From: Deltaproteobacteria bacterium
GTDB lineage: Bacteria > Desulfobacterota > RBG-13-43-22
Assembly: GCA_016219225.1 (NCBI GenBank)
Contig: JACRBX010000048.1
Span: forward strand, 11,952 to 75,951
Length of the DNA stretch: 64,000 nucleotides
Reading direction: 5' to 3'
Part shown: positions 1-35,391 of the stretch, piece after piece
Layout of the letters: each line of letters starts with the position of its first letter
Position numbering within the stretch: position 1 is the first letter of the stretch
The notes under the pieces: model-generated
What the model was told of the DNA's origin: nothing
The model's input: the letters and a program-made list of their open reading frames with translations, nothing else
Databases searched by the model: none
Program-made: the position numbers and the translations under genes

Positions 1-1891
1 CATCAAAAGCATCGAGGAATACCAAAAAATCTATAACTGGTCGGCGGAGAATACCGAGGAATTCTGGGCCAGGATGGCCGGGGAGCACCTGACCTGGTAC
101 AGAAAGTGGGACAAGGTCTGGGACTGGGATTTTTATAAACCCTCTGTCCAGTTTTTTGTGGGCGGCAAATTAAACGCCTCCTACAACTGCCTGGACCGGC
201 ACCTGGGTTCCCCGCTGCGCAACAAGGCGGCCCTCATCTGGGAAGGGGACCTGGGGGACTACAAGACCTATACCTACCAGCAGCTCTATACCGAGGTGAA
301 CCGCTTCGCCAACGTGCTGAAGAAAAACGGGATCACCAAAGGCGACCGGGTGACCATTTACCTGCCCATGATCCCGGAACTGCCGATCGCCATGCTGGCC
401 TGCGCCCGGATCGGGGCCATCCACAGTATCGTCTTCGGAGGCTTCAGCCCTTCTTCCCTCAGGGACCGGATCCAGGACTGCCAGTCGACCCTGGTGATCA
501 CCGCCGACAACGGCCTGCGGGGAAACAAACTGGTGCCCTTGAAAACCAACGCCGACGAGGCCCTCAAGGAGTGCCCTTTCGTCGGGAAGGTCATCGTGGT
601 CAACCGGGCCGGGAAGACCGAAATGCAGACCGGCCGGGATCTTTGGTGGCACGAACAGATGAAGGCCCCGGATATCGGCAATTACTGCGAACCGGAGGTG
701 ATGGACGCCGAGGACCCCCTGTTCATTCTCTATACCTCCGGCTCCACCGGCAAACCCAAAGGGGTGCTGCACACCACCGGCGGCTATCTGCTCTATACCA
801 ACCTGACCTTTAAGTGGATCTTCGACTATCACGAGGAGCTGACCCATTTCTGTACGGCCGATATCGGCTGGGTGACCGGGCACAGCTACATCGTCTACGG
901 GCCCTTATCGGCCGGGGCCACCAGTCTGATGTACGAAGGCATCCCGACTTATCCCAATGCCGGCCGGTTCTGGGATATTGTAGACAAACACCAGGTCAAC
1001 ATCATCTATACGGCCCCCACAGCCATCCGGGCCCTGATGCGGGAGGGGACGGACTGGGTCACCAGGCATGATCTGTCTTCGCTGCGATTGCTGGGTACGG
1101 TAGGTGAGCCCATCAACCCCGAGGCCTGGATGTGGTATTACAAATATGTCGGGAAGGAGAAGCTGCCCATCGTAGACACCTGGTGGCAGACCGAGACCGG
1201 CGGGATACTGATCACCCCCCTGCCCGGGGCCATGACCCTCAAACCCGGTTCGGCCGCCGGGCCTTTTCCTGGCATATTCCCCAAGGTGATCAAAGAAGAC
1301 GGCTCGGCGGCCAAGGCCAATGAGGGGGGATATCTGATTATCGAAAAGCCCTGGCCCGGTATGCTGCGGGGCACTTACGGCGATCCGGAAAACAAGCGGA
1401 TCAAGGAAGTCTACTTTTCCCGGTTCCCCGGGATGTATATGACCGGTGACGGGGCCAGGGTGGACCAGGACGGTGACTACTGGCTCCTGGGCCGGATCGA
1501 CGACGTCATCAACATTTCCGGACACCGTCTGGGAACGGCGGAAGTCGAGTCGGCCCTGGTCAGTCACCAGTCGGTGGCCGAATCGGCCGTGGTCGGCTTT
1601 CCCCACGAGATCAAGGGTGAGGGCATTTATGTCTTTGTAACCTTGAAAGAGGGCTTTGTCCCTACGGATGAATTGAAGAAGACCCTGGTGGCCCATGTCC
1701 GCAAGGTGATCGGACCCATTGCCTCACCGGACAAACTGCAGTTTACTTCGGGGTTACCCAAAACCCGTTCGGGAAAGATCATGCGCCGGATCCTGCGCAA
1801 GATCGCCCAGGGCGACGTGGAGGAGCTGGGCGACGTCTCGACCCTGGCCGATCCGAGCGTAGTAGGGAGCCTGGTTAAAGAGAGATTATAG
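1..1891 (+). CDS. acs: Acetyl-CoA synthetase (AMP-forming), 5' end cut by window edge
   Basis: The reading frame is open from position 2 ([29 protein letters not shown]...), matching the Acs N-terminal region. AMP-binding motif [12 protein letters not shown] and C-terminal [11 protein letters not shown] are present; stop at 1889-1891. Confidence 0.9.
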
Positions 1892-1892
1892 A

Positions 1893-2060
1893 AAAAAGCG
1901 AATGTCGAATATCGAATACTGAATAATAAATGTCGAAGGAAGGAAAATACAACCCACTTCATGATTTGAAATTCGATGTTCGATTTTTAATATTCGTTTT
2001 TTCGTTCTAAACTCTCATGCCTCCAGAGGCACCACGAAGCATGAAAATTTCTTTCGCCAG
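1893..2060. repeat. Intergenic repeat tract: 7-mer CGAATAT-type tandem array plus the core module TCATGCC..GGCACCACGAAGCATGAAAAT (2015-2048)
   Basis: Direct reading: tcgaatatcgaatactgaataataaatgtcgaagg followed by catgcctccagaggcaccacgaagcatgaaaat. The same module recurs at 17716, 18111, 22305, 32263 and 38599. Confidence 0.7.
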
Positions 2061-2186
2061 ACATCGATTTTAAGGGTTTTTTTACTTACTTTGAGCTTTC
2101 AGCTTTGAGCTATTTTCGCAATAAAATACCCGGGGGCCCGCTAAGGAAAAGCGGCGCCTCGCCAGGTCTTCATCAGTGGAGGGACC

Positions 2187-2381
2187 ATGCCTGACAGTTC
2201 GCAGATCCAGAAAACGCGGAAAAAATCGCCATTTAAAAAGACCCCACCGGAATCCCGGCAGGAGCCCCTTTCTCAGGAAAAACAGAGAAAGCTCAAAGAA
2301 TTGGATGATTATATCGAAAGTGTCCTCCAGGAGGCCGGTGAAGATTTCTTAGATCGTTTCAAACAGGTCGAAGGGGAATAG
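2187..2381 (+). CDS. Pup/UBact-like small protein modifier candidate (64 aa, C-terminus ...FKQVEGE)
   Basis: SD GGAGGGACC precedes the ATG. Disordered basic N-terminus, then an acidic helix LKELDDYIESVLQEAGEDFLDRFKQVEGE that resembles the Pup ligase-binding region and ends in Glu. The stop is 2 nt before the PafA-like gene. Confidence 0.55.
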   Translation: MPDSSQIQKTRKKSPFKKTPPESRQEPLSQEKQRKLKELDDYIESVLQEAGEDFLDRFKQVEGE

Positions 2382-2382
2382 G

Positions 2383-3858
2383 TTGCGTCACAGGATCTTC
2401 GGAACCGAAAACGAATATGCCCCTTTTGACCATAACCAGACGGCAACGCCCCAGGTCCCGCTATCCAACAGGGGTTGGCCCGAGGATCAAGGGGAATTGG
2501 CCGCCGGCCTGATCGAAGGCCTTCAGGGGTGCCAATACCCTCGGGCCGGAGAATTTTTGGGCAACGGTGGCCGATTGTACCTGGATCGGGGCGGGCACCC
2601 GGAATACGCTACCCCGGAGTGCCGCACGGTAAAAGACCTGGTGGCTCATGAAAAGGCCGGGGACGTCCTTATCCAGGCACTGGTGGAGAAGGTGCGCTCC
2701 CAACAACCCCACAACCGCCTCCATGTATACAAGAACAATTGCGATTCTTATGGCCACACCTATGGCGGCCATGAGAATTACCTGGTCACTTCCCTGGCCA
2801 TGAAGCATCTCGATCGTCTCGTCCCTTTCCTGGTTACCCGCCAGATCTATACCGGTACGGGCAAGATCATGACTTCCCCGCTCTGCAGCCTTCCGGCCTT
2901 CCAAATCAGCCAGCGGGCCGATTTTTTCGACGCAACCTTTTCCGACCGGACCTCCGAGACCCGGGGCATCATCAACATCCGTAAACGCGAAATAGCCCGG
3001 CCCGGAGAAAACCAGCGCCTGCATATCATCGTGGGCGACAGCAACATGTCCCAACCGGCCCTGGCCCTCAAAATAGGAACCACGGCCCTGATATTGCGGC
3101 TGTTGGAAGAAGAGGCCCTGGGCGAGGTCTTGGCCCTGGGCGCACCGGCCCAGGCCATCAAAGCGATCTCCCGTTCTTTGAAGGCCCCGGTGGCCATCCG
3201 GCGTCAAGGGCGGACCTTGCAGTACACGGCTTTAGAGGTCCAATCCCTGTATTTGGAAAAAGCCCTTCGATTCTGTGCCCGTCCGGGCACCGACCCCGAA
3301 GAGATCCGCTGGCTGGGCCTCTGGGAATATGTTTTGAAGGCCCTTAAATTTTTGGAAATCTCTCAGTCCGAGATGCTTCTTATCAACGACCCGGGAGAAT
3401 TGAAAAGAAAAATCGACTGGGTACTTAAACTCTGGCTCCTCAGCCGCTCCCGGTCCAAGGGTGCCGATGATCGGCAATTGAAACTCCTGGATCTGATATA
3501 CCACGACCTGGACCCTGCCTCCGGGCTCTTTGAACGTTGTCAGGCCCTGGGGCTGGTAGACCGGCTTGTGGACGAGGAGCGCATCCGACAGGCCCGGCGC
3601 AATCCTCCTGCGGACACCCGGGCCAGGCTGCGGGGCCTGATCATACAAAAAGCTTTTCATCAAAACGTGGACGTCCAGGTGGAGAACTGGGAAAGCATCC
3701 AGGTCCGGGCCCATCATCGTCGGGCCGGGATAAACCACCCTTTCCGCAACCTTACCACCGCGATGAACAAACTGGGGATCCGTCTGGATGACCCCTTCCA
3801 GGGAGAAAATCCCCAGGCCCTGGAGGAACTGGAACAATTTATTTTGGCCTGGGGCTGA
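2383..3858 (+). CDS. Pup-ligase/deamidase family protein (PafA/Dop-like, carboxylate-amine ligase)
   Basis: Motifs shared with PafA/Dop: N-terminal RIFGTENEY, GGRLYLDRGGHPEYATPEC, GGHENYL, LVPFLVTRQI, RLHIIVGDSNMS, DTRARLRG. No long Dop-loop insertion is apparent. Confidence 0.85.
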   Translation: MRHRIFGTENEYAPFDHNQTATPQVPLSNRGWPEDQGELAAGLIEGLQGCQYPRAGEFLGNGGRLYLDRGGHPEYATPECRTVKDLVAHEKAGDVLIQALVEKVRSQQPHNRLHVYKNNCDSYGHTYGGHENYLVTSLAMKHLDRLVPFLVTRQIYTGTGKIMTSPLCSLPAFQISQRADFFDATFSDRTSETRGIINIRKREIARPGENQRLHIIVGDSNMSQPALALKIGTTALILRLLEEEALGEVLALGAPAQAIKAISRSLKAPVAIRRQGRTLQYTALEVQSLYLEKALRFCARPGTDPEEIRWLGLWEYVLKALKFLEISQSEMLLINDPGELKRKIDWVLKLWLLSRSRSKGADDRQLKLLDLIYHDLDPASGLFERCQALGLVDRLVDEERIRQARRNPPADTRARLRGLIIQKAFHQNVDVQVENWESIQVRAHHRRAGINHPFRNLTTAMNKLGIRLDDPFQGENPQALEELEQFILAWG

Positions 3859-3864
3859 TAGACT

Positions 3865-4581
3865 ATGGATGGTCCGGATAAAAAAATCGTAAATATCAAT
3901 AGAGACCTCGAACGCAGCCGGGTGCGTCACGTCGTGATCGGCCAGTATATGCTGCACGAGGTCCAGCACCATTCCTTGCAGCACACCGGTTCTCCTTCCC
4001 TGATCCCCAAGGCCCACAGCCCGATGGATATATACAAGTGCCTGCATCAGGGGGAATTCGGCGTGGGCCACAGCCTGGATTATCCCAAACGGTTCCGGCA
4101 GCGTCTGGTCCGGGAAACGATGGAAGACGAGCCGGAAGAAGGCGCCCAGGAACCGGCCTTGGAAGACATCTCGGCCGAAGGCCGGGTACTGCGGGTGAAC
4201 CTGCGCGCTTTTAGAGGCCTTTTTAATCACGAAATAGACAAGCGTATCGACCAATTGGCCCAGGTCTGTTTTGAATCCGCGGAAACCGCCCGAGGGAGTG
4301 AGACCCGTTTCAGGGAAACGCTGGCTTTTTTTAAGGACCTCAATCAGGCCAATGAATTGAGGATCGGAAGGCAGTCCTTCGCCTTTCCCGGAGAAATGGT
4401 CGATCGATTCCTGCTCGAGGTCCATGATTTAACCCGACGTCTGGGGCAGGTCCCGATCTTCGGTCATTCGCCGGACTACCGCCGGCTCAATCATCCGGCC
4501 TACCGGGTAGTAGATCGGACGGTCCTGGAAAAATCGCCTTTGGCCGGACTTTTGAAAAAGACGCCGGAACCGACCAGGTAA
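3865..4581 (+). CDS. Hypothetical protein (238 aa), co-operonic with Pup-ligase homologue
   Basis: Begins 7 nt after the PafA-like stop; codon usage is coding-like. The overlapping minus-strand ORF 3232-4425 is antisense to the PafA-like gene and is taken as spurious. Confidence 0.5.
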   Translation: MDGPDKKIVNINRDLERSRVRHVVIGQYMLHEVQHHSLQHTGSPSLIPKAHSPMDIYKCLHQGEFGVGHSLDYPKRFRQRLVRETMEDEPEEGAQEPALEDISAEGRVLRVNLRAFRGLFNHEIDKRIDQLAQVCFESAETARGSETRFRETLAFFKDLNQANELRIGRQSFAFPGEMVDRFLLEVHDLTRRLGQVPIFGHSPDYRRLNHPAYRVVDRTVLEKSPLAGLLKKTPEPTR

Positions 4582-4594
4582 CGGAGGAAGATCC

Positions 4595-4906
4595 ATGGAT
4601 ATCAAAACCGCGGCGGCGGAGTTTCACGGGGCCTGTCTGGCGATTCTGGATCAACCAGAACTCCCAGCAGAATTAGCCTACCGGATGCAGCGGATCATAG
4701 ACCGCTTCCTGCCGGTGGCGGATAAGATGTATCTCAAGACGGTAAAAGGCTTCCAAACCGTTTTGCAGTGCACCCAGCAGGCCAGGACCATTACAGATCA
4801 CCTGCCAGCCGGCCGGTACCTTTTCTATCGGCAGGTTACGGATCTGGAAAATACCCTGGAGGAACTCCTCAAGGCGGCCTACGCATTTCGCATCAAGGCC
4901 GGCTGA
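4595..4906 (+). CDS. Hypothetical protein (103 aa)
   Basis: ORF 14 nt after the previous stop on the same strand; no recognisable motif. Confidence 0.45.
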   Translation: MDIKTAAAEFHGACLAILDQPELPAELAYRMQRIIDRFLPVADKMYLKTVKGFQTVLQCTQQARTITDHLPAGRYLFYRQVTDLENTLEELLKAAYAFRIKAG

Positions 4907-5067
4907 AATGAACCTGCCTTGGATTGTGGAGTTCGGAGTTCAAAGGAGTTTTCGATTGAAGAGTTAAGATCTAAGATATACGGATTTGATTTTGACTTCC
5001 TTCGACATTCATCATTCGTTATTCGATATTCGATATTCGCCTGTTTTATAAGGGTTCAAGAGAAAAT

Positions 5068-6900
5068 ATGGAAAATTCAAGCACTTCCTTCCAGGCCCTT
5101 TTACTGCAACCTCCCCCGGGAGATTTGACCGGCCCTTATCCGGCCCTGGGCTATTTGAAATCCTACGCCGCTCACCAGGGATTTTGCGTGAAAGTCAAAG
5201 ATCTGGGGATCGAAGCCCTGGATCATTTAACCCGGCCAGACCGGATCGCCCCCCTTCTCGACCAGGCCCGATCCATGCTTGGAGGGCTCAAGGCCCAAAA
5301 AGCCTTGGATGCCTCGGCACAGCAGCATTACCGCTTTTTATTGGCCGCCCTGGCGGCCGGACGACCGCCTCAATGGTTCTCCACCAACCTGGAAATTTTC
5401 CGGGACCCCGACCGGTTTTATGACTATCGGGAATATCAGAAGGCCCGGCTGGCCTTGAATGCCTTTTTCGGTCTGCTCAGCGCCGTCCATTTTCCCACCG
5501 TTCTGACTGCCGCCGAGTATCCCACGGCCGGCAGTCTCAAGACCTGGCCGGCTATCCTGGAACATTGCCAGGCCAGGGTCAACCCTTATGTGCATTACTA
5601 CGAAGAGGTCCTCTTCCCCCTGTTAGCCGCCCATCCGCCGGCCCTGGTAGGCATCTCCATGGTCTTTGCCAACCAGTCGGTCCAGGCCCTGGTCCTGGGC
5701 CGCCTGATCAAGAGGCACTTCCCCCAGATCCAGGTGACCATGGGAGGCGCCTATCTTTCCCAATGGGTCATGCTCCTGGAAGGTGCCCGGCTGGAAGAAT
5801 TTTTTCAGTGCACCGATTCCATCGTTATCGGGGAAGGAGAAAAACCCTTTGCCCGGCTGCTGGGAAAAATTAGCAACGGCCAGGGGCTGGAGGCGGTCCC
5901 AAATTTAGTCTATCGCCAGCGGTCAACGGGGAGGATCCATCGGTCGGCCGCTTTTGAATATACGGATATCGCTCACCAGCCTCCCCCTGATTTTTCCGAT
6001 CTCGACCTGGCCGCCTATTTGAGTCCCCAGCCTGTTATCCCCTACTGCATCAGCCGGGGTTGTTATTGGGGGAAATGTGTCTTTTGCCAGAACCGCTACG
6101 GGGACCGGCAAGTTCGCCGCTATCAGGTGGTTCCCGTAGATAAAGCCATCGAAGAACTATCGGCCTTGGCGGACCGATACGGCTCGAACCATTTTAATTT
6201 CAGTAACGACGTGATCGATCCGAAATATCTGAAGCGGTTCAGTCAGGCGGTCGAATCCTCCGGCCGGAAGTTTGTCTGGAATACGGATTTACGGGCGGAG
6301 AAGGCCTATACCAGGGATGTCTGCCGACTGATGGCCAGGGCCGGGTTAAACGCTGTGGCCATCGGGTTTGAAAGCGGCTGCCAGAAGGTCCTGGAAGCCA
6401 TGGATAAAGGCAATCGGGTGCCTACCACCCGGCAGGTCTTGAAAAATTTATACCAGGCCGGGGTGGCCACCCAGGCCATGGGCTTTTTTGGATTCCCCGG
6501 AGAAACGGAAGCAGACGGAGAAAAGACCGTTCGGTTTTTGGAGGAAAACATCGCCTGTATTTCTTATTATGTTATGGGTCTTCTGCTGGTGCTTCCCGGC
6601 TCCAGGATGTACGAAGACCCCCGGCGGTTCGGGGTAACCGCTCTCCGATACGAAGGCAATTCCCTGATGACCCCGGAGCCGGTCTGGAAATCAGATATCC
6701 GTATGTCCATGGCCGCGGTCAATCGTCTCTATCAGCGGTTGAGCCGGCTGGAAGCCCTTTATCTCCTGGATGACTATCCCTACGTGGGAGGCTTATCCAC
6801 CAATCATGGTTTTCTTTATTTTAAGTCCGGACCGGACATCCTCAAGGTCCTGCGAAAGCAGGAAAAGGAAGGAACCCATCAACAGATGCTGGTTGCTTGA
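5068..6900 (+). CDS. B12-binding domain radical SAM protein (cluster motif CYWGKCVFC = CX4CX2C)
   Basis: N-terminal Rossmann-like B12-binding region (ALVGISMVFANQ...VTMGGAYLS), then SRGCYWGKCVFCQN and a radical SAM barrel. 610 aa. Confidence 0.8.
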   Translation: MENSSTSFQALLLQPPPGDLTGPYPALGYLKSYAAHQGFCVKVKDLGIEALDHLTRPDRIAPLLDQARSMLGGLKAQKALDASAQQHYRFLLAALAAGRPPQWFSTNLEIFRDPDRFYDYREYQKARLALNAFFGLLSAVHFPTVLTAAEYPTAGSLKTWPAILEHCQARVNPYVHYYEEVLFPLLAAHPPALVGISMVFANQSVQALVLGRLIKRHFPQIQVTMGGAYLSQWVMLLEGARLEEFFQCTDSIVIGEGEKPFARLLGKISNGQGLEAVPNLVYRQRSTGRIHRSAAFEYTDIAHQPPPDFSDLDLAAYLSPQPVIPYCISRGCYWGKCVFCQNRYGDRQVRRYQVVPVDKAIEELSALADRYGSNHFNFSNDVIDPKYLKRFSQAVESSGRKFVWNTDLRAEKAYTRDVCRLMARAGLNAVAIGFESGCQKVLEAMDKGNRVPTTRQVLKNLYQAGVATQAMGFFGFPGETEADGEKTVRFLEENIACISYYVMGLLLVLPGSRMYEDPRRFGVTALRYEGNSLMTPEPVWKSDIRMSMAAVNRLYQRLSRLEALYLLDDYPYVGGLSTNHGFLYFKSGPDILKVLRKQEKEGTHQQMLVA

Positions 6901-6950
6901 TATTGGGGTAGAGATTTTATCCAGCATCCCGCATCCAGCATCCAGCCCTT

Positions 6951-8975
6951 CTAATGCTCGCTGCTGAGGTGAGGCAGGTGACCATAGCCGGTTTGAATCT
7001 TGTACAGGATACGCAGGAGTTCAGCGCAGGCAATGGGTTTGCGCACCACCCGATCGACCCCGCAACGGGACAGTTCGGCCGGATCAAGCTTTTTATCCAC
7101 ACCGGTATAGAGCAGAAAAGGGGTTTTCGGACGTCCGGTCTGTCTGGCGTAATCCAGGGCGGCCCGCCCGAGTTCCAGTCCATTCATCCCGTCCATGCCA
7201 AAATCACACAGGATCACATCATAACGGTCCCCATAAATAGAGGCCAGACCTTTCTCGGCTGTACCGGCGGTCGTAAGATCGACCGGGGAATCTTCAAAGA
7301 ACATCTCCATCATCTTGAGAATATTCTTTTCGTCGTCGATGAGTAAAAATTTTATTTTTGTTTCGTTTGAGGTTCGTTCGCCGGGGATATTTTCCTTCTC
7401 TTCTATGGCCGGAGCCTGGGACCGGGGCAGGATGATGGTAAAAGTGGCCCCTTTCCCCGGACCGCTGTTAACAACCATGTCCCCCTGGTGTTTCTTAATG
7501 ATGCCATAACTGGAAGAAAGGCCCAGACCGCTGCTCTTTTCCCCTTTGGTTGTAAAAAAGGGCTGGAAAAGACGTTGCCGGTTTTCTTCTAAAATCCCTT
7601 CCCCCGTATCGCTGATCGACAAAAGAACATGTTCCGGTCGGTTCTCGGGAGAGATCGTCAGGACACCCCCTTTCGGCATGGCCTCCAGGGCGTTTTTGAT
7701 AAGGTTCACCAGAACTTCGTACAGTTCGGACGGATTACCCCTGACCCGGCCTCCCAAAGGCCGGATATAGTTCAGACGATATTTGCCCGGGTTGGCCGGA
7801 TTGGCCCAGAGTGAAGAGGTGAGCTGCACGGCTTCGGATACCAGGTCACCCAGATCGAACACCTTGGCCTCTTCGATTTTATCGGTCTTGGCTGCGGTAA
7901 ATTCCTTGATCCGCCGGACAATATCGGCTCCTCGATGGCAGGCTTCCATCATGGTCAGAATGGCCTCGCGGCTTTTTCGGATTTCTCCGGAAGCCAGCTT
8001 GTTCAGGGCCGCTTCGCCGCCCCCCAGGATCATTTGAAGAAGGTTATTGAAATTGTGGGCCACGCCGCTGGCCATTTCCCCAACGGCCGACAACCGTTCG
8101 CTTCGAATCAGTTTTTCTTCCATCCGTTTCCGGGCGCTCAAATCCCGGGCAACGCTCAGCACCGCCGGTTTGCGTTGAAAATCGATAAGCCGCGAATGAA
8201 ATTCATAGGGGATGATCTCACCGGATTGGGTAATTGTTTCGAGTTCAAATTGAACCGTTTCTCCGGAGCGGACTTTTTCGCCCATACGCCGCAAAACCTT
8301 TAATTGCGTCGGCCGGACAATGTCGGTAAAGGTCAGGTTAAGCAACTGCTGGCGGGTGTATTGCAGCCGGAGGCAGGCCACGTCGTTGACCTCCAGAAAG
8401 GCTCCCTGGGAATGACTGATAAAGACCGGATCGATGACGTTATCAAACAGTTCCTTATAGCGCAGCAGCCCTTCGTTTTTTTTACGTTCGGTGATATCCC
8501 GGGCCAGGGCTACAAAACATTTTTTCTCCTGAACCTCCACAACCATGCCGGTGACTTCGGCATCGACCAGATCCCCGTCCCTTTTGCGAAAGCTTCTTTC
8601 TTGAATGTGAACAACGCCCTCGGCCACTGCCTTGCGAATATTCTCGATGACCCCTTCGGCACCCGGGGCGAGAATATGTTCGATCCCCATGGTCAGGAGC
8701 TCGGCCCGGGAATAGCCCAACCATCGCAGGGTAAAAGGATTGCAGTCCAAGATGCCGTGGCTCTCCATATCCAGGATATAGATGGCCTCTGGGGCATTTT
8801 CTATAATGGCCCGGAAGTTGGCTTCCGAAGTACTGACCTTTTCCAGGACTTGATTGAATTCAGCGGTGGCTTCCTTGAGCAGGTTGGTCAGGATGTCCGA
8901 CTTACGCTCAGATTGCTCCAGAAGCTCTTCCAACTCCTGGATCCGTTGTTCGAGGCTTTGGATCCTTTCCATCAT
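6951..8975 (-). CDS. Hybrid sensor histidine kinase (coiled-coil, PAS, HisKA/HATPase, C-terminal receiver)
   Basis: H-box SGVAHNFNNLLQ, ATPase motifs DTGEGI...GLGLS, and a C-terminal receiver domain LLIDDE...DVILCDFGMDGMNGLEL. Confidence 0.85.
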   Translation of the reverse strand: MMERIQSLEQRIQELEELLEQSERKSDILTNLLKEATAEFNQVLEKVSTSEANFRAIIENAPEAIYILDMESHGILDCNPFTLRWLGYSRAELLTMGIEHILAPGAEGVIENIRKAVAEGVVHIQERSFRKRDGDLVDAEVTGMVVEVQEKKCFVALARDITERKKNEGLLRYKELFDNVIDPVFISHSQGAFLEVNDVACLRLQYTRQQLLNLTFTDIVRPTQLKVLRRMGEKVRSGETVQFELETITQSGEIIPYEFHSRLIDFQRKPAVLSVARDLSARKRMEEKLIRSERLSAVGEMASGVAHNFNNLLQMILGGGEAALNKLASGEIRKSREAILTMMEACHRGADIVRRIKEFTAAKTDKIEEAKVFDLGDLVSEAVQLTSSLWANPANPGKYRLNYIRPLGGRVRGNPSELYEVLVNLIKNALEAMPKGGVLTISPENRPEHVLLSISDTGEGILEENRQRLFQPFFTTKGEKSSGLGLSSSYGIIKKHQGDMVVNSGPGKGATFTIILPRSQAPAIEEKENIPGERTSNETKIKFLLIDDEKNILKMMEMFFEDSPVDLTTAGTAEKGLASIYGDRYDVILCDFGMDGMNGLELGRAALDYARQTGRPKTPFLLYTGVDKKLDPAELSRCGVDRVVRKPIACAELLRILYKIQTGYGHLPHLSSEH

Positions 8976-10135
8976 CCAATTTCAAGAAGACTCAAGGTAA
9001 TCGTTTCGTTATGGAAATAATTCGGCCCTCCGGCCGAGATCCGGCAGTATTCACCGTAGGTATAAAATCCGATGATGGGAACCGACAGACCGATTTCAGT
9101 CCGAACTCTTTGGATTTCTTCTTCGGTCCGGCGACCCAGAACGATCTTCCGGGCCATGCAGGAATAGCAGAAGGCTATAGACGGGGAATGGCCGCTCAAG
9201 GCGGATTTGGCCAGACCGGTGGCCTGATCGGCGGCCTCCAGGATGGAGGAGACATCACCACAGGTCAGATGGACCAGGGCCCCTTCGGTGATCTCCCCGG
9301 CAAAAGTAATGGAACGCTCCTCCCGGTTGACGGCCATTGTGGCCCGGATCAGATGGTAGTCCTCCTGGCCATCTTCCCCGCACCGTTCCAGAAGACCGAG
9401 CGGATATTCTACCCCAATGACCGGCAGCTTTTCGGCATGACGCCCCAGAAAGCGTTCGTAGACGTTCAAAGCCGGTTCACCATTCAATTCGTAGAGCACA
9501 TTACCCCGGGAACGGGTAACCCGTTTGGCCAGCCCGATCGGCGACCAGCCGCTGCGTACCCCTGTTCCAAGACGGAAATCCCCATAAAAGGCGATGCCGC
9601 AAAGGGTATCCGTGTAGACCTGATCGCCGGCAAATTGCAGGGTCTTCAGAAATTTGCCGTTGTCCCCGGCGGTTCCTCCGGCGATGGGGATATGCCCGCC
9701 CAGGACAGAGGTGATACCCTTTAAGATGGCGCAGCCGTCTCCGGTCAGTCCGTCTGAAAAAATCTGTATATACCGGGGTGGTTTGGAGAAGGCCCCGGCC
9801 AGCCGCCGGCCAGCCCCTTCGCTGTCCTGACCGAGCCCCTGTACCGTGGCGATTTCAAAATCGATCTGATCGGTGGCGATACCCCCCAGGACGACCGAAT
9901 TGGTGCTCAAGCCGTCTCCCGAGATCTCACCGTCAGTGGTACAACCCACCAGATTCTGACTGCCCAGGCTTTCCCCGATACCCTTAAGCAATTCCGGAAT
10001 CCCTGAAGACGGCGCAGAGAATAACCAACAAGCCTTGGGGGTTTGCCCCAGCTCCCTTTCCAGGGTCTGGCCCAGTCGATGGCCCAGGTGCCGGGAAGGT
10101 GACTCGTTGGATCGGATGGTTGCTGCCTTAAACAT
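8972..10135 (-). CDS. FIST domain sensory protein
   Basis: About 387 aa with an architecture typical of FIST N- and C-domains; its stop overlaps the kinase start (ATGA). Confidence 0.7.
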   Translation of the reverse strand: MFKAATIRSNESPSRHLGHRLGQTLERELGQTPKACWLFSAPSSGIPELLKGIGESLGSQNLVGCTTDGEISGDGLSTNSVVLGGIATDQIDFEIATVQGLGQDSEGAGRRLAGAFSKPPRYIQIFSDGLTGDGCAILKGITSVLGGHIPIAGGTAGDNGKFLKTLQFAGDQVYTDTLCGIAFYGDFRLGTGVRSGWSPIGLAKRVTRSRGNVLYELNGEPALNVYERFLGRHAEKLPVIGVEYPLGLLERCGEDGQEDYHLIRATMAVNREERSITFAGEITEGALVHLTCGDVSSILEAADQATGLAKSALSGHSPSIAFCYSCMARKIVLGRRTEEEIQRVRTEIGLSVPIIGFYTYGEYCRISAGGPNYFHNETITLSLLEIG

Positions 10136-10187
10136 TACGATTCCCCTATTCCATGTTCCCTTTTCCGGTCTATGCCCTGCTCTTGCC

Positions 10188-10796
10188 TTACCCGAACAGG
10201 ACCTGAAGCCGCACCAGTCCCTGACCTTCGGACCAGTCCCGCAAAGATAACTCTGGCGGATCCAAAGGCTGCTGATTCATCTCAGCCCCTGTGCAGCTCT
10301 GCCAGCCCTCCTCCGCCAGCCGATTAAAAAGGTCTTTCATCTGCTGGAGGGAGATCAGTATCCCCCGGTTTAAAAAACAGGGACCCAGGTCTTTGATCAA
10401 CAGGTTGAACAACTTAATGGTCAGAAGGCCCCCCGGATGACTGATCCGGTCCGGGATTTCCTGATAGGTAATGGTGTTACGAAAACAGGCCAGCAGGCCG
10501 CCCGTGCGCATGGTGGCTCCCACCAGCCCCGGCAGGGCCGCGGAAAGGGCCAGGGTATCCCCATTTTTGACTACGGCTGCTCCCATTTCGTCCACCGGCT
10601 TTCCATTTAGAAAAAGGGTCTGGATCTTATTGCCTATCTGCCTGGGGCTGAGCCCGTAAACTTCACAGAGAATATCCCGGATGGTCTGGCTTTGTTCGAT
10701 AAACACACCGAACCCCTGCTGCAAGATAGGAAAGAAAGGGATCATCTGCCCGGTTTTGATAAATAGGCGAATATCGGCCATCTCAGGGGCCTTCAT
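10188..10796 (-). CDS. Hypothetical protein (202 aa) upstream of FIST-HK
   Basis: ORF on the same strand 52 nt upstream of the FIST gene; no clear family. Confidence 0.45.
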   Translation of the reverse strand: MKAPEMADIRLFIKTGQMIPFFPILQQGFGVFIEQSQTIRDILCEVYGLSPRQIGNKIQTLFLNGKPVDEMGAAVVKNGDTLALSAALPGLVGATMRTGGLLACFRNTITYQEIPDRISHPGGLLTIKLFNLLIKDLGPCFLNRGILISLQQMKDLFNRLAEEGWQSCTGAEMNQQPLDPPELSLRDWSEGQGLVRLQVLFG

Positions 10797-10949
10797 GGTT
10801 CATCTCCTTATTCGATATTTTTATTTTTCGCTGGTGTGCCACAGGAGGTATGGATATTTGATAATAATAGGTTAATCCTGGTCGGAAATCAAGAATTTTA
10901 AGGGCCGGTGCCAGGTCTGGCCCCGGCCCTCCGAAACCGGTCGAATCCT

Positions 10950-10995
10950 TCTCCCATTTTATAAAACCGGAGAGCCCCGATCAAAGGGGCTCCCC
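10950..10995 (-). terminator. Putative intrinsic terminator downstream of the aor gene
   Basis: Hairpin ggagagcccc-gatcaaa-ggggctcccc lies 3' of the aor stop and is followed on the minus strand by a T-rich stretch. Confidence 0.35.
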
Positions 10996-11021
10996 GATAA
11001 ACGGACCCGGAGGAAAAAGGT

Positions 11022-12764
11022 CTACCAGTTGAAAACAGTATCCAGATCTTCGTCTTTGACCTGAAAAGTCACATTGTGGGGCGGAAGCATCTCGGTCTTG
11101 AAAAATCGGGGTAGCCGGTCGTGTTCGGAAGTAAACCCGGCCTTCTTGTTGAACTCTCTTTCGCCCTTCAGAATCGACTTGCCCAATTCTCCGACATCAT
11201 TGGCCGTCAGGTTCAACCCATAAAAGGCATTGATCATGTCGATCAGGGCCTGAAAGGTCTCCGGCTGATCCAGGACGGCAAAGGCAATGAAAAGGCACAT
11301 CCCCGTGGCATCGACAGCCGCTGTGGCAATTTGCAGATTCCGGGAAAGTTCGATCTGCCCTTCAGGCTTGAGGGGGTCAACCGTACCCCCCACCCCCAGG
11401 ATATTGGTGGCCACGGCATATCCGGCCGTATGGTCAGCCCCCATGGGACTGGTGGCATAGGTCACCCCGATCCCTTGGACCCCCCGGGGGTCATAGGCCG
11501 GCATTGCCTGACCCTTGACAACCGGCACCCGTTCAACACCGAAGACTTTACCGGTAACGGCCGCGCCGTTGCCCAGGATCCTCCCCAGATGCGTCCCCTG
11601 CCCCACTTCATTGAGCAACTGGATGGCGGCCGCGGCATCCCCAAAGGGTACCAGGCCGGCCTCCATGGCCACTCCGATGGTGGCGCCCATTTCGATGGTG
11701 TCCAGACCGAAATCGTCGTCCATCCGGTCCAACCGGGCGATGACATCGATATCGCTGATCCCGCAGTTGCCCCCGTGGGCCCAGACCGTTTCATACTCGG
11801 GCTGCTTGGTTAAAAAGGCCCCGTCTTTGTCATAGAAGGTGCCGGAGCAGCGGATGATGCAGCCCCGATGGCAGGGGTGGGTGGCGCTTCCCTTGCCCCC
11901 CCGTTGTTCTTCCAGGGCGGCCAGAGTCTCGCCGCTGATCATGGAACAATTATCAAAGCGACCCCACATGAAGTTTTTGGTCGGATAGGCACCGGCTTCA
12001 TTGAGGACGTTGGTCAGCACATTGGTACCATAGGCCGGGAGGCCTTCTCCGGTGACCGGATGCTTCTTCAGACCGGCCACGAAAACCTGGTTGGCTTCTT
12101 TGAATTTTTCGGGATCTTTGGGCGGCCGCATATTCAGGCCGCTGTCATCGAGCACAATGGCCTTGACGCCCTTGGAACCCATGACCGCACCCACGCCGCC
12201 GCGGCCGGCGTGACGGGTAGGTCTCAGTTCCATATCGGTGACCGCCACGGAGGCCGCACTCATTTTCCGCTCACCGGCCGGACCGATGGAGATGACGGTA
12301 ATCTTGTCACCATATTGCCCTTTCATCCGGTCCACCAGGTCATAGTTGCCGAGATAACGCAGCCCGTTGTCCGCATTGACTTGGACACCGTCCTTGTTGA
12401 TATAGATGTGATACAGGGTATCGTCCGCCGGTTTTCCCTCCAACACAATGGCCGCATAGCCCAGCCTGGCCAGTACCTGTGCGCCCTGTCCCCCGGCGTT
12501 GGCTTCTTTGATCCCGCCGGTCAGGGGGCTCTTGCACCCGACGGACAACCGGCCGGACATGGCGGCCGTCGTTCCGCTCAACAGGCCCGGGGCGATGACC
12601 AGCTTGTTTTCCGCGCCCAGAGGATGACAGAGCGGCGGCACCTCCTTGGCTATGACAGCCGATGTCATGGCCCGTCCGCCTGCCCCGGCGTAATCCCCCA
12701 GGGATGAAACAGTCGTTTGGGGTTCACCATCCGGTCCCATAATGATTCTTAAGATTTTGTCCAT
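11022..12764 (-). CDS. aor: Aldehyde:ferredoxin oxidoreductase (tungsten-containing AOR family)
   Basis: 580 aa; N-terminal domain with MGPDGEP...GLLSGT and a C-terminal AOR domain. Confidence 0.8.
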   Translation of the reverse strand: MDKILRIIMGPDGEPQTTVSSLGDYAGAGGRAMTSAVIAKEVPPLCHPLGAENKLVIAPGLLSGTTAAMSGRLSVGCKSPLTGGIKEANAGGQGAQVLARLGYAAIVLEGKPADDTLYHIYINKDGVQVNADNGLRYLGNYDLVDRMKGQYGDKITVISIGPAGERKMSAASVAVTDMELRPTRHAGRGGVGAVMGSKGVKAIVLDDSGLNMRPPKDPEKFKEANQVFVAGLKKHPVTGEGLPAYGTNVLTNVLNEAGAYPTKNFMWGRFDNCSMISGETLAALEEQRGGKGSATHPCHRGCIIRCSGTFYDKDGAFLTKQPEYETVWAHGGNCGISDIDVIARLDRMDDDFGLDTIEMGATIGVAMEAGLVPFGDAAAAIQLLNEVGQGTHLGRILGNGAAVTGKVFGVERVPVVKGQAMPAYDPRGVQGIGVTYATSPMGADHTAGYAVATNILGVGGTVDPLKPEGQIELSRNLQIATAAVDATGMCLFIAFAVLDQPETFQALIDMINAFYGLNLTANDVGELGKSILKGEREFNKKAGFTSEHDRLPRFFKTEMLPPHNVTFQVKDEDLDTVFNW

Positions 12765-12811
12765 ACGTTCTTCTCCTTTCTGAGTAGTTACTGGTTGGGA
12801 CTTCTGTTTTT

Positions 12812-14011
12812 TTAGAGCTCTTCCTGCTGAACCATCTCCGAGGCCTTACATTGCGCCTCTTCCCATACCTTTTTTATTGGCACATGCTGTTCCCGGGCGA
12901 TCCGTTTACAATCCTCATACTCCGGGGCGATGTTGACGGCCCGGTTATCGAACCGGGCCACTTTGCACTGGACCCGCCCGAAGCGGGTGCTGACCTCCTG
13001 GATCTTTCGGTTGAGCCGCAGACGCTGATCCAGACGCCAGCGCAGTCCGATGGTCGTGGTCTCCCGAAAAATAAAATCGGCCAGACCGGGCAGTTGTTCG
13101 AGACGGCAGAGGATGGTCACCAGGACCCCGGTGCGGTTTTTTTTCATCTGCACCGAAGTGAAAAAAATATCCAGGGCGCCCTGTTGTAAAACCCTTTCAA
13201 TCAAAAAATCATAGAACTGCGGGTTCATGTCATCGATGGTCGTTTCAATAACCGCCGTTTGTTCCACTTCGTATTGGGTCAACCCCTGGGCCGTTTGTCC
13301 GATAAAAAGACGCAACAGGTTGGCCAGGGAGCGATCGGCGGTTCCTGCGCCCTGTCCGACCTTTTCCACGGTCATGGCCGGCATGGGCCCGAATTCGGTC
13401 GCCAGGGTGGTCAAAATTGCGGCCCCGGTCGGGGTAAGCAATTCCCCTTGAACCCCGGTAGCATAAACCGGCTTCCCGATGATCAACTCAGCCGTGGCCG
13501 GGGCCGGCACCGGCAGAAGGCCATGAGCGCATTCCACGGTTCCTGTTCCCACATGGAGTGGCGAGCAATGGATCTTCTCGATCCCCAGTCCCCGTATACC
13601 GATAGCCGCACCGACCACATCAATGATGGCGTCCATGGCGCCTACCTCGTGAAAATGGATGGAAGCCACCTCCGTCTGGTGCACTTTGGCCTCGGCCTCG
13701 GCCAGACGGCTAAAGATCTTCAGACTGTCGTCTTTAATAGCCTGATCCAGACGGCTTTCTTCAATGATCGCCCGAATGTCTTCCAGGTGTCGATGATGAT
13801 GATGGTGATGATCCTGGTCGATAGTCACCAGGGCCTGGCTGCCGGACAACCCTTTTTTAACGACCTTCACGACCTTAAGGTCGTAGTGGGACAACGACAG
13901 CTTGGACAGTTCATTTTGTAGATACTCCAGGGGCAATCCCGCATCCAGGAGGGCCCCCAGAATCATATCGCCGCTGGCTCCGGAAAAACAATCAAAATAA
14001 GCGATCTTCAT
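12812..14011 (-). CDS. larC: Nickel-pincer cofactor biosynthesis protein LarC (DUF111 nickel insertase)
   Basis: N-terminus MKIAYFDCFSGASGDM is typical of LarC; a His-rich linker (DHHHHHHRH) is present; 399 aa. Confidence 0.8.
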   Translation of the reverse strand: MKIAYFDCFSGASGDMILGALLDAGLPLEYLQNELSKLSLSHYDLKVVKVVKKGLSGSQALVTIDQDHHHHHHRHLEDIRAIIEESRLDQAIKDDSLKIFSRLAEAEAKVHQTEVASIHFHEVGAMDAIIDVVGAAIGIRGLGIEKIHCSPLHVGTGTVECAHGLLPVPAPATAELIIGKPVYATGVQGELLTPTGAAILTTLATEFGPMPAMTVEKVGQGAGTADRSLANLLRLFIGQTAQGLTQYEVEQTAVIETTIDDMNPQFYDFLIERVLQQGALDIFFTSVQMKKNRTGVLVTILCRLEQLPGLADFIFRETTTIGLRWRLDQRLRLNRKIQEVSTRFGRVQCKVARFDNRAVNIAPEYEDCKRIAREQHVPIKKVWEEAQCKASEMVQQEEL

Positions 14012-31774: not shown

Positions 31775-32238
31775 TTTTCCCCTCCCTGGTCATAAAAAAT
31801 TTCAGCCACCGATACGAGGCACTGGGCCAGACTACTGATGGCCAGGCCAAAAACCACCGGGTAGAAAGGGAGTCTCAAGCTGAGGGTCACCGACCGGGTG
31901 TCGATAAACTTTTTCCCCATGAGGATAAAATACCAGGCCGCTATGAGAAACATGCAAAACACCAGGATTCTTGTGATGATTCGAAGGATCCTCCGTGGTC
32001 GGGGCCCAAGCTTATCAATCAGAAGATCCACATAGACCTGGGCCTTCATCTGTGATGCCCGGGGCAGGGCAAATCCGGTAACCAAAGCCCCTAAGAAAGC
32101 GACGACTTCGTAGACCCCGACGATCGGTCTCCCCACAAATCGCAGAACAATGTCCGAGAAGGTGAGCACCATCATGATGAGCAGGACTATCCCGGCAATC
32201 ACGGACAATAAGCTGGACAAACGATTGACCCATACCCG
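31771..32238 (-). CDS. dctQ: TRAP transporter small permease DctQ
   Basis: Start placed at MRVWVNRL with AGGAGG 7 nt upstream; the tracked ORF's N-terminal extension runs into the intergenic repeat. Confidence 0.7.
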   Translation of the reverse strand, partial: RVWVNRLSSLLSVIAGIVLLIMMVLTFSDIVLRFVGRPIVGVYEVVAFLGALVTGFALPRASQMKAQVYVDLLIDKLGPRPRRILRIITRILVFCMFLIAAWYFILMGKKFIDTRSVTLSLRLPFYPVVFGLAISSLAQCLVSVAEIFYDQGGEK

Positions 32239-32262
32239 CATAGGTATCCTCCTTGACTGTAT

Positions 32263-32370
32263 TAAGCCTTCATGCCCCATGGGCAAACCACAAATAATGA
32301 AATATCGAACATCGGATGTCGAAGGAAGGCAAGAACAAATTATTTCATGATTCGAAATTCGATATTCAAA
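32263..32370. repeat. Intergenic repeat module copy plus CGAATAT-type 7-mer array
   Basis: taagccttcatgccccatgggcaaaccacaaataatgaaatatcgaacatcggatgtcgaagg...ttcgaaattcgatattc. Confidence 0.65.
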
Positions 32371-32550
32371 GCGTCCAGGGGCCAGGGGTTCAAGGGGCAA
32401 GGTTTTTACACTTGCAACCTGCAACTTGAAACGTGTATCTTTCTTCTTTAACTCAACCCTGCCCCCTGATCCCCGACCCCTGAATCCTGATTCCGTTCTT
32501 CATGCGTGCAACCGCAACTTGAAACTTACAACTTGCAACTTTTTTTCTCA

Positions 32551-35377: not shown

Positions 35378-35391
35378 ATTCCACCTCCTGA

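What the first reader, a model, noticed from the sequence alone, without database searches (positions are those of the whole stretch)
2187..6900. Pup/UBact-like tag and PafA-family ligase operon with no proteasome or AAA-unfoldase, linked to a B12-radical SAM enzyme
A 64-aa Pup-like protein ending in Glu is translationally coupled (2-nt gap) to a clear PafA/Dop homologue. In canonical loci these sit beside proteasome subunits and Mpa/ARC. Here the next three same-strand genes are two unknowns (238 and 103 aa) and a cobalamin-dependent radical SAM. That suggests pupylation-like tagging used for something other than proteasomal degradation, or a ligase chemistry repurposed for maturing a small protein. 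This module is a plausible candidate for an undescribed system.
Basis: partly seen in the sequence, partly recalled or inferred. Interest (0 to 1): 0.85.

Follow-up and report, generated by a model that had tools for sequence, protein, structure and literature searches.

The report
Proteasome-less Pup operon with radical SAM
The window holds the second half of a ten-gene operon conserved in sulfate-reducing-type bacteria (Desulfobacterota), in which a complete bacterial ubiquitin-like (Pup) tagging and unfolding machine has no proteasome next to it and is instead always linked to a cobalamin radical SAM enzyme and several uncharacterised enzymes.

Summary
They are a 64-aa Pup-like tag ending in Gly-Glu, a PF03136 ligase, two proteins with no family match (238 and 103 aa), and a B12-type radical SAM.

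The claim of "no AAA-unfoldase" is a window-edge artefact. The window starts inside an acetyl-CoA synthetase gene. In the closest relative (88-98% identical), that gene sits between a Dop-like paralogue and the Pup gene. An Mpa/ARC ATPase that passes the NCBIfam cut-off lies just upstream.

In about 30 Desulfobacterota genomes the gene order is: Amidohydro_2, SirB1-like transglutaminase/TPR, CHC2 zinc finger, Mpa, Dop, Pup, PafA-like, 238-aa protein, radical SAM. I found no proteasome gene in any of these loci or in the window genes I scanned. The ATPases lack the GQYL docking motif.

Most radical SAM homologues carry a C-terminal domain whose predicted fold best matches RiPP recognition elements. 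The window's copy lacks this domain. The 238-aa protein is a new family with an invariant HExxH motif and no structural match in PDB.

The most likely reading is a proteasome-independent pupylation system, with a radical SAM that acts on a peptide or protein, possibly Pup itself. I found no paper describing it. It is a new variant of a known kind.

The parts
1..1891 (+). Acetyl-CoA synthetase, with its N-terminus cut by the window edge. In this lineage only, it is inserted between the Dop-like gene (off-window) and the Pup gene.
   Evidence: The frame is open from nt 2 and matches residue 27 onwards of the 655-aa ACS in L002, at 96.6% nt identity. ACS lies between DOP and PUP only in L002/L003/L007.
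1892..1952 (.). Left arm of a 61-nt inverted repeat carrying TCGAATA heptad runs. It lies inside a roughly 283-nt ACS-Pup spacer that the closest relative lacks.
   Evidence: 10 motif matches in the window against 0.36 expected. (window 1895-2177 has no match in L002).
2187..2381 (+). Pup-like tag, 64 aa, ending Gly-Glu.
   Evidence: Pfam Pup E=0.036. 28 orthologues end EG[EQ] and share an invariant C-terminal 26 aa. The profile aligns in register with PDB Pup chains, weakly (E 0.17-0.6). In relatives it always lies between the Dop-like and PafA-like genes.
2383..3858 (+). PafA-like Pup ligase paralogue, 491 aa, TTG start.
   Evidence: PF03136 E=5e-112. TIGR03686 PafA 336 bits against TIGR03688 Dop 303 bits, both below cut-off. 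It is equidistant to the solved Dop and PafA sequences. It has 60-66 residues before the NGxRxY motif, like PafA, against 90 in the Dop-like paralogue.
3865..4581 (+). P238, a new protein family with an invariant HExxH motif (H31 E32 H35) and a conserved His/Asp/Cys/Tyr/Arg set. It is probably an enzyme.
4595..4906 (+). P103, an optional accessory protein with an invariant C-terminus ...Y.FR[IV]KAG.
   Evidence: No family match. Found in 10 loci at varying positions.
4986..5046 (.). Right arm of the inverted repeat, just upstream of the radical SAM gene.
   Evidence: The same motif lies upstream of the radical SAM gene in L002.
5068..6900 (+). B12-type radical SAM enzyme. This is the short form (610 aa), without the C-terminal RRE-like domain that most homologues carry.
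   Evidence: PF04055 62 bits and PF02310 19.6 bits. TIGR03975 130.7 bits, below its cut-off. Invariant CYWG[KR]C[VA]FC motif. 98 of 118 homologues are 705 aa or longer. The extension's fold matches RRE domains.
6951..8975 (-). PAS/histidine kinase/receiver hybrid, convergent with the operon. It is a recurrent neighbour and a possible regulator.
   Evidence: Pfam. The family is present in 10 loci.
8972..10135 (-). FIST-domain protein, a recurrent neighbour. In Desulfomonilaceae it sits inside the operon, between the zinc-finger gene and the ATPase gene.
   Evidence: Pfam FIST and FIST_C. Present in 12 loci. L022 3218-4378 and L026 3425-4582 are on the operon strand.

Best explanation
The five genes are the distal half of a conserved Desulfobacterota operon. 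Its order is Amidohydro_2, SirB1-like transglutaminase/TPR, CHC2 zinc finger, Mpa/ARC ATPase, Dop-like, Pup, PafA-like, P238, B12-radical SAM, with or without P103.

Shown here:
- The tag, both PF03136 paralogues and the ATPase are orthologue-grade or near.
- The gene order is conserved.
- No proteasome genes are linked to the locus.
- The ATPase lacks the GQYL tail.
- Most radical SAM homologues carry an RRE-like domain.

Inferred mechanism:
1. Pup ending in Gln is deamidated by the Dop-like enzyme. Pup ending in Glu, as in this window, needs no such step.
2. The PafA-like enzyme ligates the terminal Glu gamma-carboxylate of Pup to target lysines.
3. The Mpa-like hexamer binds Pup and unfolds the tagged protein.
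4. Because there is no 20S partner, the outcome is remodelling or disassembly, as with Corynebacterium ARC and ferritin. Alternatively, the unfolded protein is handed to one of the co-conserved hydrolase-like proteins (P238, Amidohydro_2 or the transglutaminase-like protein).
5. The radical SAM docks on an unstructured peptide through its RRE-like domain and performs a cobalamin-dependent radical modification, probably a methylation-type reaction. The substrate is most plausibly Pup or a pupylated or unfolded target.
For: - Synteny across 30 loci in Desulfobacteraceae, Desulfosarcinaceae, Desulfatiglandales, Desulfomonilaceae, Syntrophobacteraceae, Desulfohalobiaceae and Deferrisomatales.
- ATPase TIGR03689 595.8 bits, above the 504.75 cut-off. 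Dop-like TIGR03688 474.9 bits against 355 bits for the PafA model.
- The PafA-like paralogue lacks the roughly 30-aa insert that the Dop-like paralogue has.
- Pup C-termini are a mix of E and Q, which fits an active deamidase.
- ATPase C-termini end ...V.V[GP]..L[KE] in 24 sequences. None ends in GQYL or has a penultimate aromatic residue. PMC8223512 defines the motif and describes proteasome-free pupylation in C. glutamicum.
- No PF00227 match in any scanned protein, and no other recurrent 200-300-aa family in the loci.
- The radical SAM is the most conserved accessory gene, at 58-65% identity.
Against: - The AAA and Dop-like genes were not seen in this genome itself. They are inferred from an 88-98% identical relative.
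- The rest of the genome could not be searched for prcAB.
- The window's own radical SAM lacks the RRE-like domain, as do about 17% of homologues.
- One locus (L034, Deferrisomatales) has the Pup module and P238 but no radical SAM, so the radical SAM is not obligatory.
- Amidohydro_2, a P238 paralogue and radical SAM enzymes also occur together without any Pup genes (L036, L040, L024). Distant P238 relatives are fused to NUDIX or kinase domains. Both facts hint at small-molecule chemistry rather than protein chemistry.
- No direct evidence identifies the radical SAM substrate.
Confidence: 0.55

Rival explanations
1. There are two separate functions that merely travel together. One is a proteasome-independent Pup module. 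The other is an unrelated Amidohydro_2/P238/radical SAM module that makes or modifies a small molecule or cofactor. The Pup system has no mechanistic connection to it, or only regulates it.
For: - AMIDO + P238 paralogue + radical SAM/SPASM clusters exist without Pup genes (L036 3979-8829, L040, L024 1548-3524).
- L036 has a SLOG protein between AMIDO and the P238 paralogue.
- The wider P238 superfamily (1440 representatives) is fused to NUDIX, uridine-kinase-like and SCO1 domains.
- MoaA-like and tungsten or molybdenum enzymes are frequent neighbours.
Against: - In 26 loci the Pup genes are sandwiched between the AMIDO-TGL-ZNR genes and the P238-radical SAM genes, in one orientation, with short or overlapping junctions, despite 45-60% protein divergence.
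- The radical SAM in the Pup loci carries a peptide-binding RRE-like fold.
- The radical SAMs in the Pup-free clusters belong to a different type (SPASM, about 380 aa), so they are not the same enzyme.
Confidence: 0.2
2. This is an ordinary Pup/UBact-proteasome system whose 20S genes lie elsewhere in the genome. The accessory genes would then be incidental.
For: Only 64 kb of this genome, and 10 kb or less on either side of the match in relatives, could be inspected. Gram-negative phyla with Pup-proteasome loci are known (PMC2588565, PMC5666114).
Against: - No proteasome gene lies within 10 kb in about 30 loci or in the window.
- All 24 ATPases lack the GQYL or penultimate-aromatic docking tail.
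- Published surveys list 20S proteasomes in Actinobacteria, Nitrospirae, Armatimonadetes and Verrucomicrobia, and not in deltaproteobacteria.
- The accessory genes are too consistently syntenic to be incidental.
Confidence: 0.12
3. This is a RiPP-like biosynthetic cluster. The 'Pup' would be a precursor peptide that the radical SAM modifies. The PF03136 enzymes would act as amide ligase and hydrolase on the peptide itself. The transglutaminase-like, amidohydrolase or HExxH proteins would act as leader peptidases.
For: - RRE-like domain on the radical SAM.
- The best NCBIfam match is the RiPP radical SAM C-methyltransferase family.
- Three candidate hydrolases are present in the operon.
Against: - The would-be core peptide is nearly invariant across families, like a housekeeping tag, rather than hypervariable.
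- An Mpa/ARC equivalog and a Dop-like enzyme are always present.
- The conserved set contains no exporter or immunity genes.
- The radical SAM scores well below the TIGR03975 cut-off, 130.7 against 281.85.
Confidence: 0.1
4. This is an anti-phage or other conflict system built on ubiquitin-like tagging.
For: Bacterial ubiquitin-like conjugation systems do act in defence (own knowledge). The zinc-finger protein weakly matches DnaG-like parts of DRT models.
Against: - No specific PADLOC match for any of the ten proteins. Only generic AAA, radical SAM and zinc-finger similarity was found.
- The chromosomal neighbours are stable across families (MoaA-like, AFOR, FIST/kinase), which indicates vertical inheritance rather than a defence island.
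Confidence: 0.03

Closest known systems
Actinobacterial Pup-proteasome system (Mpa/ARC, Dop, Pup, PafA, PrcBA)
   Same: - Tag ending in G-[EQ].
- Two PF03136 paralogues, one with a Dop-type insert.
- An ATPase passing the TIGR03689 equivalog cut-off.
- The same mpa-dop-pup...pafA gene order.
   Different: - No prcB/prcA between pup and pafA or nearby.
- The ATPase tail lacks GQYL.
- pafA is followed by P238 and a B12-radical SAM rather than pafBC.
- Amidohydro_2, a SirB1-like protein and a CHC2 zinc-finger protein precede mpa.
- The host is Desulfobacterota.
Proteasome-free pupylation in Corynebacterium glutamicum (ARC-dependent ferritin disassembly; PMC8223512)
   Same: Pup, PafA, Dop and ARC are present without 20S genes. 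The outcome is therefore likely unfolding or disassembly rather than proteasomal degradation.
   Different: In Corynebacterium this is a secondary loss within a canonical locus, with no added enzymes. Here five extra conserved genes, including a radical SAM, are integrated into the operon.
Pup/ligase loci without proteasome in Plesiocystis and Rhodopirellula (Iyer et al. 2008, PMC2588565)
   Same: A non-actinobacterial Pup and Pup ligase that are not linked to proteasome genes.
   Different: Those ligases carry a four-transmembrane-segment insertion and are linked to a membrane protein. The ligase here is soluble, has a Dop partner and Mpa, and is linked to a radical SAM.
RRE-dependent radical SAM RiPP maturases (e.g. 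TigE, PqqE/PqqD) and B12-radical SAM protein methylases (the MCR-modifying family TIGR04014)
   Same: A B12-type radical SAM core. In most homologues there is also a PqqD-like peptide-recognition domain.
   Different: - The enzyme is below every curated family cut-off.
- It has a Cx4Cx2C cluster motif.
- It is embedded in a protein-tagging operon.
- The window's copy lacks the RRE-like domain.

Membership tests
Pup-proteasome system | Small tag protein ending in Gly-[Glu/Gln], homologous to Pup | tested here: met
   The window protein ends ...VEGE. All 28 orthologues end EG[EQ]. Pfam Pup E=0.036 and 0.006, below threshold. The profile aligns in register with PDB Pup chains at E 0.17-0.6.
Pup-proteasome system | PafA-family carboxylate-amine ligase (PF03136) adjacent to the tag gene | tested here: met
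   PF03136 E=5e-112. The NCBIfam PafA equivalog cut-off is not reached, 336 against 551 bits.
Pup-proteasome system | Dop deamidase/depupylase paralogue | tested here: inconclusive
   Absent from the 64-kb window, but the window starts mid-gene. It is present in 26 relatives' loci. TIGR03688 scores 474.9 bits, just below the 492.3 cut-off. It carries a Dop-type N-terminal insert.
Pup-proteasome system | Mpa/ARC AAA ATPase (TIGR03689) | tested here: met
   Met in relatives only: 595.8 bits against a 504.75 cut-off, present in 26 loci. It is not in the window itself. It is presumed to lie upstream of the window edge, as in L002.
Pup-proteasome system | 20S proteasome alpha and beta genes in the locus | tested here: not met
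   No PF00227 match in the window genes or loci scanned. The loci contain no other recurrent 200-300-aa family. The whole genome was not testable.
Pup-proteasome system | C-terminal GQYL motif (penultimate aromatic residue) on the ATPase, for docking to the 20S particle | tested here: not met
   24 ATPase C-termini end ...L[KE] or similar, and none has a penultimate Tyr. The motif is as defined in PMC8223512.
UBact (Pup homologue of Gram-negative phyla) | UBact-specific sequence signature and a locus containing proteasome subunits | not testable with these tools
   The defining paper is not in the searchable library. From memory only, UBact loci include prcAB, which is not the case here.
Class B (cobalamin-dependent) radical SAM | Radical SAM core plus an N-terminal B12-binding domain | tested here: inconclusive
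   PF04055 scores 62 bits, above threshold. PF02310 scores 19.6 bits in the window and 24.9 in L004, below the 32.1 threshold. PF02310 is precomputed on many homologues. The cluster motif is Cx4Cx2C, not CxxxCxxC.
TIGR03975 RiPP maturation radical SAM C-methyltransferase | Score at or above the family cut-off | tested here: not met
   130.7 bits against a 281.85 cut-off.
RiPP recognition element (PqqD-like) | Winged-helix fold with beta strands matching solved RRE domains | tested here: met
RiPP recognition element (PqqD-like) | Present in the window's own radical SAM | tested here: not met
   The window enzyme stops at residue 610, 50 nt before the convergent kinase gene.
Zincin metallopeptidase (for P238) | HExxH motif within a zincin fold | tested here: not met
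Proteasome/Ntn hydrolase (for P238) | Ntn-hydrolase alpha-beta-beta-alpha sandwich | tested here: not met

The most novel reading that the evidence does not exclude
Pup itself, or a freshly unfolded pupylated protein, is the substrate of the RRE-bearing B12-radical SAM. These bacteria would then use a radical-chemistry-modified protein tag. The Mpa-like unfoldase would feed tagged proteins to a non-proteasomal hydrolase set (P238, Amidohydro_2, transglutaminase-like protein) rather than to a 20S particle. That would be a protein-tagging pathway merging pupylation with RiPP-type enzymology.
Probability: 0.2. Interest if true: 0.9.

Novelty: new variant of a known kind. Interest (0 to 1): 0.68.

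Why it matters
Pupylation is studied almost only in Actinobacteria, as a route to the proteasome. This is a widespread, vertically conserved Pup system in anaerobic Desulfobacterota. It has a full ligase/deamidase/unfoldase set, no linked proteasome, and five fixed partner genes.

It would provide a natural system for asking what Pup tagging and Mpa unfolding do without a proteasome. It would also link a ubiquitin-like tag to radical SAM chemistry and to RRE-type peptide recognition for the first time. In addition, it defines two protein families with no annotation: P238, whose distant superfamily has 1440 representative clusters, and P103.

Tried and rejected
- **Recovering the window's own upstream DNA.** Exact look-up of the 238-aa protein (P0121, 100% identical, from an 83-kb NCBI MAG contig) found no record. 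Look-up of the ligase gave only a 2-kb contig. An exact 40-mer from the window start found nothing in JGI metagenomes.
- **P238 homology by sequence.** No hit in Pfam, NCBIfam, PADLOC or a PDB profile search. Distant relatives are also unannotated.
- **P103 as a detached RRE replacing the missing domain of short radical SAMs.** Rejected. P103 co-occurs with long, RRE-bearing enzymes in L006, L014, L019 and L020. Three short-form loci lack it.
- **RRE detection by sequence.** Profile searches against PDB and Pfam failed. Only the fold comparison worked.
- **AFDB Foldseek.** The library was unavailable.
- **Rfam.** No match in 1-12000.
- **Promoter and terminator scans.** Not above the shuffled expectation.
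- **Defence-system reading.** No specific PADLOC hits.
- **Pup N-termini compared between loci with and without the RRE-like domain.** No difference by eye.

Full report
**1. The observation**

ORF listing and family scans confirm five same-strand genes at 2187-6900.

- The 64-aa protein (2187-2381) ends ...FKQVEGE. It matches Pfam Pup only weakly (E=0.036).
- The next gene starts at a TTG at 2383, one base after the stop codon, behind a GAAGGGGAA ribosome-binding site. It matches PF03136 Pup_ligase at E=5e-112.
- The 238-aa and 103-aa proteins match nothing in Pfam or NCBIfam.
- The 610-aa protein has a Radical_SAM domain and a sub-threshold B12-binding domain. Its best NCBIfam matches are B12-radical SAM methyltransferases: TIGR03975 at 130.7 bits and PhpK-type at 105 bits. 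All are far below their cut-offs.

**2. The window edge hides half the system**

The first gene of the window, an acetyl-CoA synthetase, is cut by the window start. Its frame is open from nt 2 and aligns to residue 27 onwards of the 655-aa ACS of the closest relative (GCA_964627515.1, locus L002), at 96.6% nucleotide identity. In L002 the genes directly upstream of that ACS are a 521-aa PF03136 paralogue and a 609-aa AAA ATPase with a proteasomal-ATPase OB domain.

Two more distant relatives lack the ACS. They show the uninterrupted order AAA, PF03136 (523 aa), 64-aa tag, PF03136 (about 490 aa), 237-aa protein, radical SAM.

NCBIfam calls the ATPase a pup_AAA equivalog (595.8 bits, cut-off 504.75). 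It scores the 523-aa paralogue as Dop (474.9 bits, cut-off 492.3; the PafA model gives 355).

The statement 'no AAA-unfoldase' is therefore true of the window's 64 kb, but it is almost certainly an artefact of where the window begins. I could not retrieve this MAG's own upstream DNA.

**3. Conservation**

An alignment of the 238-aa family (A1) was used to scan one genome per species. It returned 34 loci, all from Desulfobacterota MAGs: Desulfobacteraceae, Desulfosarcinaceae, Desulfatitalea, Desulfatiglandales, Desulfomonilaceae, Syntrophobacteraceae, Desulfohalobiaceae and Deferrisomatales.

A tblastn map shows one recurring order:

1. Amidohydro_2 (419 aa)
2. Transglut_core2 + TPR_9, a SirB1-like protein (about 290 aa)
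3. CHC2 zinc finger (about 115 aa)
4. Mpa-like ATPase
5. Dop-like paralogue
6. Pup
7. PafA-like paralogue
8. P238
9. Radical SAM

Pfam supports the three upstream families. The Amidohydro_2 proteins keep the HxH, His and Asp metal ligands, and the zinc finger keeps its C-H-C-C residues.

- The radical SAM follows P238 in 29 of 30 non-redundant loci. The exception is L034.
- AAA and Dop are present in 26 of the 27 loci that extend far enough upstream. The exception is L011, a deleted or chimeric copy.
- The ACS insertion is specific to the window's lineage.
- All-against-all clustering of ORFs found no other recurrent family of proteasome-subunit size. The extra recurrent neighbours are a roughly 180-aa unannotated protein (13 loci), a FIST protein (12), a PAS-kinase-receiver hybrid (10), a MoaA-like enzyme (8) and AFOR (6).

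**4. The tag and the two ligase-family paralogues**

All 28 tag orthologues share LDxFIExVLxxAGxEFLxxFxQxEG[EQ] at the C-terminus. About a third end in Gln and the rest in Glu. The profile aligns end to end with M. tuberculosis Pup (LDEIDDVLEENAEDFVRAYVQKGG), although at weak E-values.

The window's ligase is equidistant to solved Dop and PafA sequences (224.7 against 223.4 bits). However, in every locus it has 60-66 residues before the NGxRxY motif, as PafA does. The other paralogue has 90, matching the Dop-specific insert. Calling the window gene the ligase is an inference from this pattern.

**5. No proteasome signature**

No PF00227 hit appeared in any scanned window gene of 150-770 aa, or in the loci (precomputed Pfam).

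The 24 distinct ATPase C-termini end in a semi-conserved ...V.V[GP]..L[KE]. None ends in GQYL or has a penultimate aromatic residue. That motif mediates docking of Mpa and Bpa to the 20S particle (PMC8223512).

Published surveys place bacterial 20S proteasomes in Actinobacteria, Nitrospirae, Armatimonadetes and Verrucomicrobia (PMC5666114). Pupylation without a proteasome is known in C. glutamicum and was noted for Plesiocystis and Rhodopirellula, which have different, membrane-inserted ligases (PMC2588565). Absence of a proteasome from the whole genome was not testable here.

**6. The radical SAM**

Its family is tight. The best 120 hits are 58-94% identical, which makes it more conserved than the ligase or P238. 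It has an invariant CYWG[KR]C[VA]FC motif, that is Cx4Cx2C.

RREs bind linear precursor peptides (10.1101/2020.03.14.992123). A recent structure-based RRE survey does not mention Pup.

The only universally conserved small, disordered protein in the operon is Pup. This makes Pup, or a pupylated or unfolded protein, the leading candidate substrate. That is inference. The window's enzyme lacks the domain.

**7. P238 and P103**

An exhaustive profile search found 1440 representative clusters. Most are about 180 aa and lack the HExxH helix, but they keep the D-x-YK...Q...G..H, R-x-N, HHS and P-x-YRV motifs. These too have no Pfam or NCBIfam family. Some are fused to NUDIX, SCO1/SenC or a uridine-kinase-like domain, and one abuts a Peptidase_M54 gene.

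Paralogue pairs of Amidohydro_2 and P238 occur next to SPASM-type radical SAM enzymes with no Pup genes nearby (L036, L040, L024). This is the main support for the rival view that these genes form a separate chemical module.

P103 occurs in 10 loci at varying positions and ends in an invariant ...Y.FR[IV]KAG. It is not a detached RRE.

**8. Interpretation**

- **Shown:** a complete pupylation and unfoldase gene set in relatives, with its distal half in the window. It has fixed synteny with five non-canonical genes, no linked proteasome, and no 20S docking tail.
- **Inferred:** proteasome-independent tagging and unfolding, with a peptide- or protein-directed radical SAM step and perhaps a non-proteasomal hydrolase.
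- **Rivals:** a co-travelling small-molecule module (0.2), a proteasome encoded elsewhere in the genome (0.12), a RiPP cluster (0.1), and a defence system (0.03; no specific PADLOC hits).

**9. Novelty**

Full-text searches found no description of this operon. The search terms were: pupylation with radical SAM, deltaproteobacteria or Desulfobacterota; UBact; Pup-like/Mpa/Dop/PafA with metagenomes; and amidoligases. NCBI names the ligase only as a 'PafA2 family protein', and P238 is 'hypothetical'.

I rate it a new variant of a known kind.

Noticed in passing
window 1892-1952 and 4986-5046: A 61-nt inverted repeat (82% complementary) built from runs of the heptad TCGAATA. It brackets exactly the Pup, ligase, P238 and P103 genes. 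The motif occurs 10 times in the window against 0.36 expected. The left arm lies in a roughly 283-nt spacer absent from the closest relative. The right-arm motif is also upstream of the radical SAM gene in L002. It could be an operator pair, or the ends of a small mobile or repeat element.
   Followed up: partly
window 8972-10135 (-) and 6951-8975 (-); L022 3218-4378; L026 3425-4582: A FIST-domain protein (12 loci) and a PAS/kinase/receiver hybrid (10 loci) recur next to the operon. In Desulfomonilaceae the FIST gene sits inside the operon, between the zinc-finger and ATPase genes. In eukaryotes a FIST domain is the substrate-binding part of the F-box ubiquitin-ligase subunit FBXO22 (papers listed).
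   Followed up: partly
L036 3979-8829; L040 9996-14889; L024 1548-3524 and 13193-14398: Paralogue clusters with no Pup genes. L036 reads Amidohydro_2, SLOG-family protein, P238 paralogue (35% identical), radical SAM/SPASM, second radical SAM. This suggests that Amidohydro_2, P238 and a radical SAM form an older functional unit.
   Followed up: partly
proteins P0382-P0509; L041 116-1278: P238 belongs to a large unannotated superfamily: 1440 representative clusters, mostly about 180 aa, with no Pfam or NCBIfam model. Some members are fused to NUDIX, SCO1/SenC or a uridine-kinase-like domain. One member overlaps the stop codon of a Peptidase_M54 (archaemetzincin) gene.
   Followed up: partly
window 4595-4906 and nine orthologues: P103 proteins all end in ...Y.FR[IV]KAG. 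This strictly conserved C-terminal Lys-Ala-Gly on a small helical protein is unexplained.
   Followed up: no
ATPase C-termini in L002-L039: The Mpa-like ATPases share a semi-conserved tail ...(E/T)(T/V)(V/I).V(G/P)(D/E).L(K/E) in place of GQYL. This may be a docking motif for an unknown partner.
   Followed up: no
window rSAM residues 332-340; 118 of 120 homologues: The radical SAM cluster motif is CYWG[KR]C[VA]FC (Cx4Cx2C), one residue longer than the canonical CxxxCxxC.
   Followed up: no
L011 5439-10734: One Desulfobacteraceae locus lacks the ATPase, the Dop-like gene and the 5' halves of the Pup and ligase genes. Amidohydro_2 and the zinc-finger gene abut a truncated Pup. It is either a deletion remnant or an assembly chimera.
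   Followed up: no
window 11022-16525 (-): Downstream genes include an aldehyde:ferredoxin oxidoreductase (annotated by synteny with L002), a LarC-type nickel insertion protein (12812-14011), an AIR-carboxylase/LarB-like protein (13992-14876) and a family-2 glycosyltransferase (14864-16525). AFOR and a MoaA-like gene recur near the operon in 6-8 other loci.
   Followed up: no
window 10188-10796 (-): A 202-aa protein with no Pfam match lies next to the FIST gene. A 202-aa gene with no Pfam match occupies the same position in L002 (18167-18775).
   Followed up: no
window 42592-46742 (-) and 31771-41730 (-): A three-subunit xanthine-dehydrogenase-family molybdoenzyme (MoCoBD, FAD_binding_5, 2Fe-2S), with MarR and TetR regulators, and two TRAP transporter sets. 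This appears to be ordinary metabolic context.
   Followed up: no
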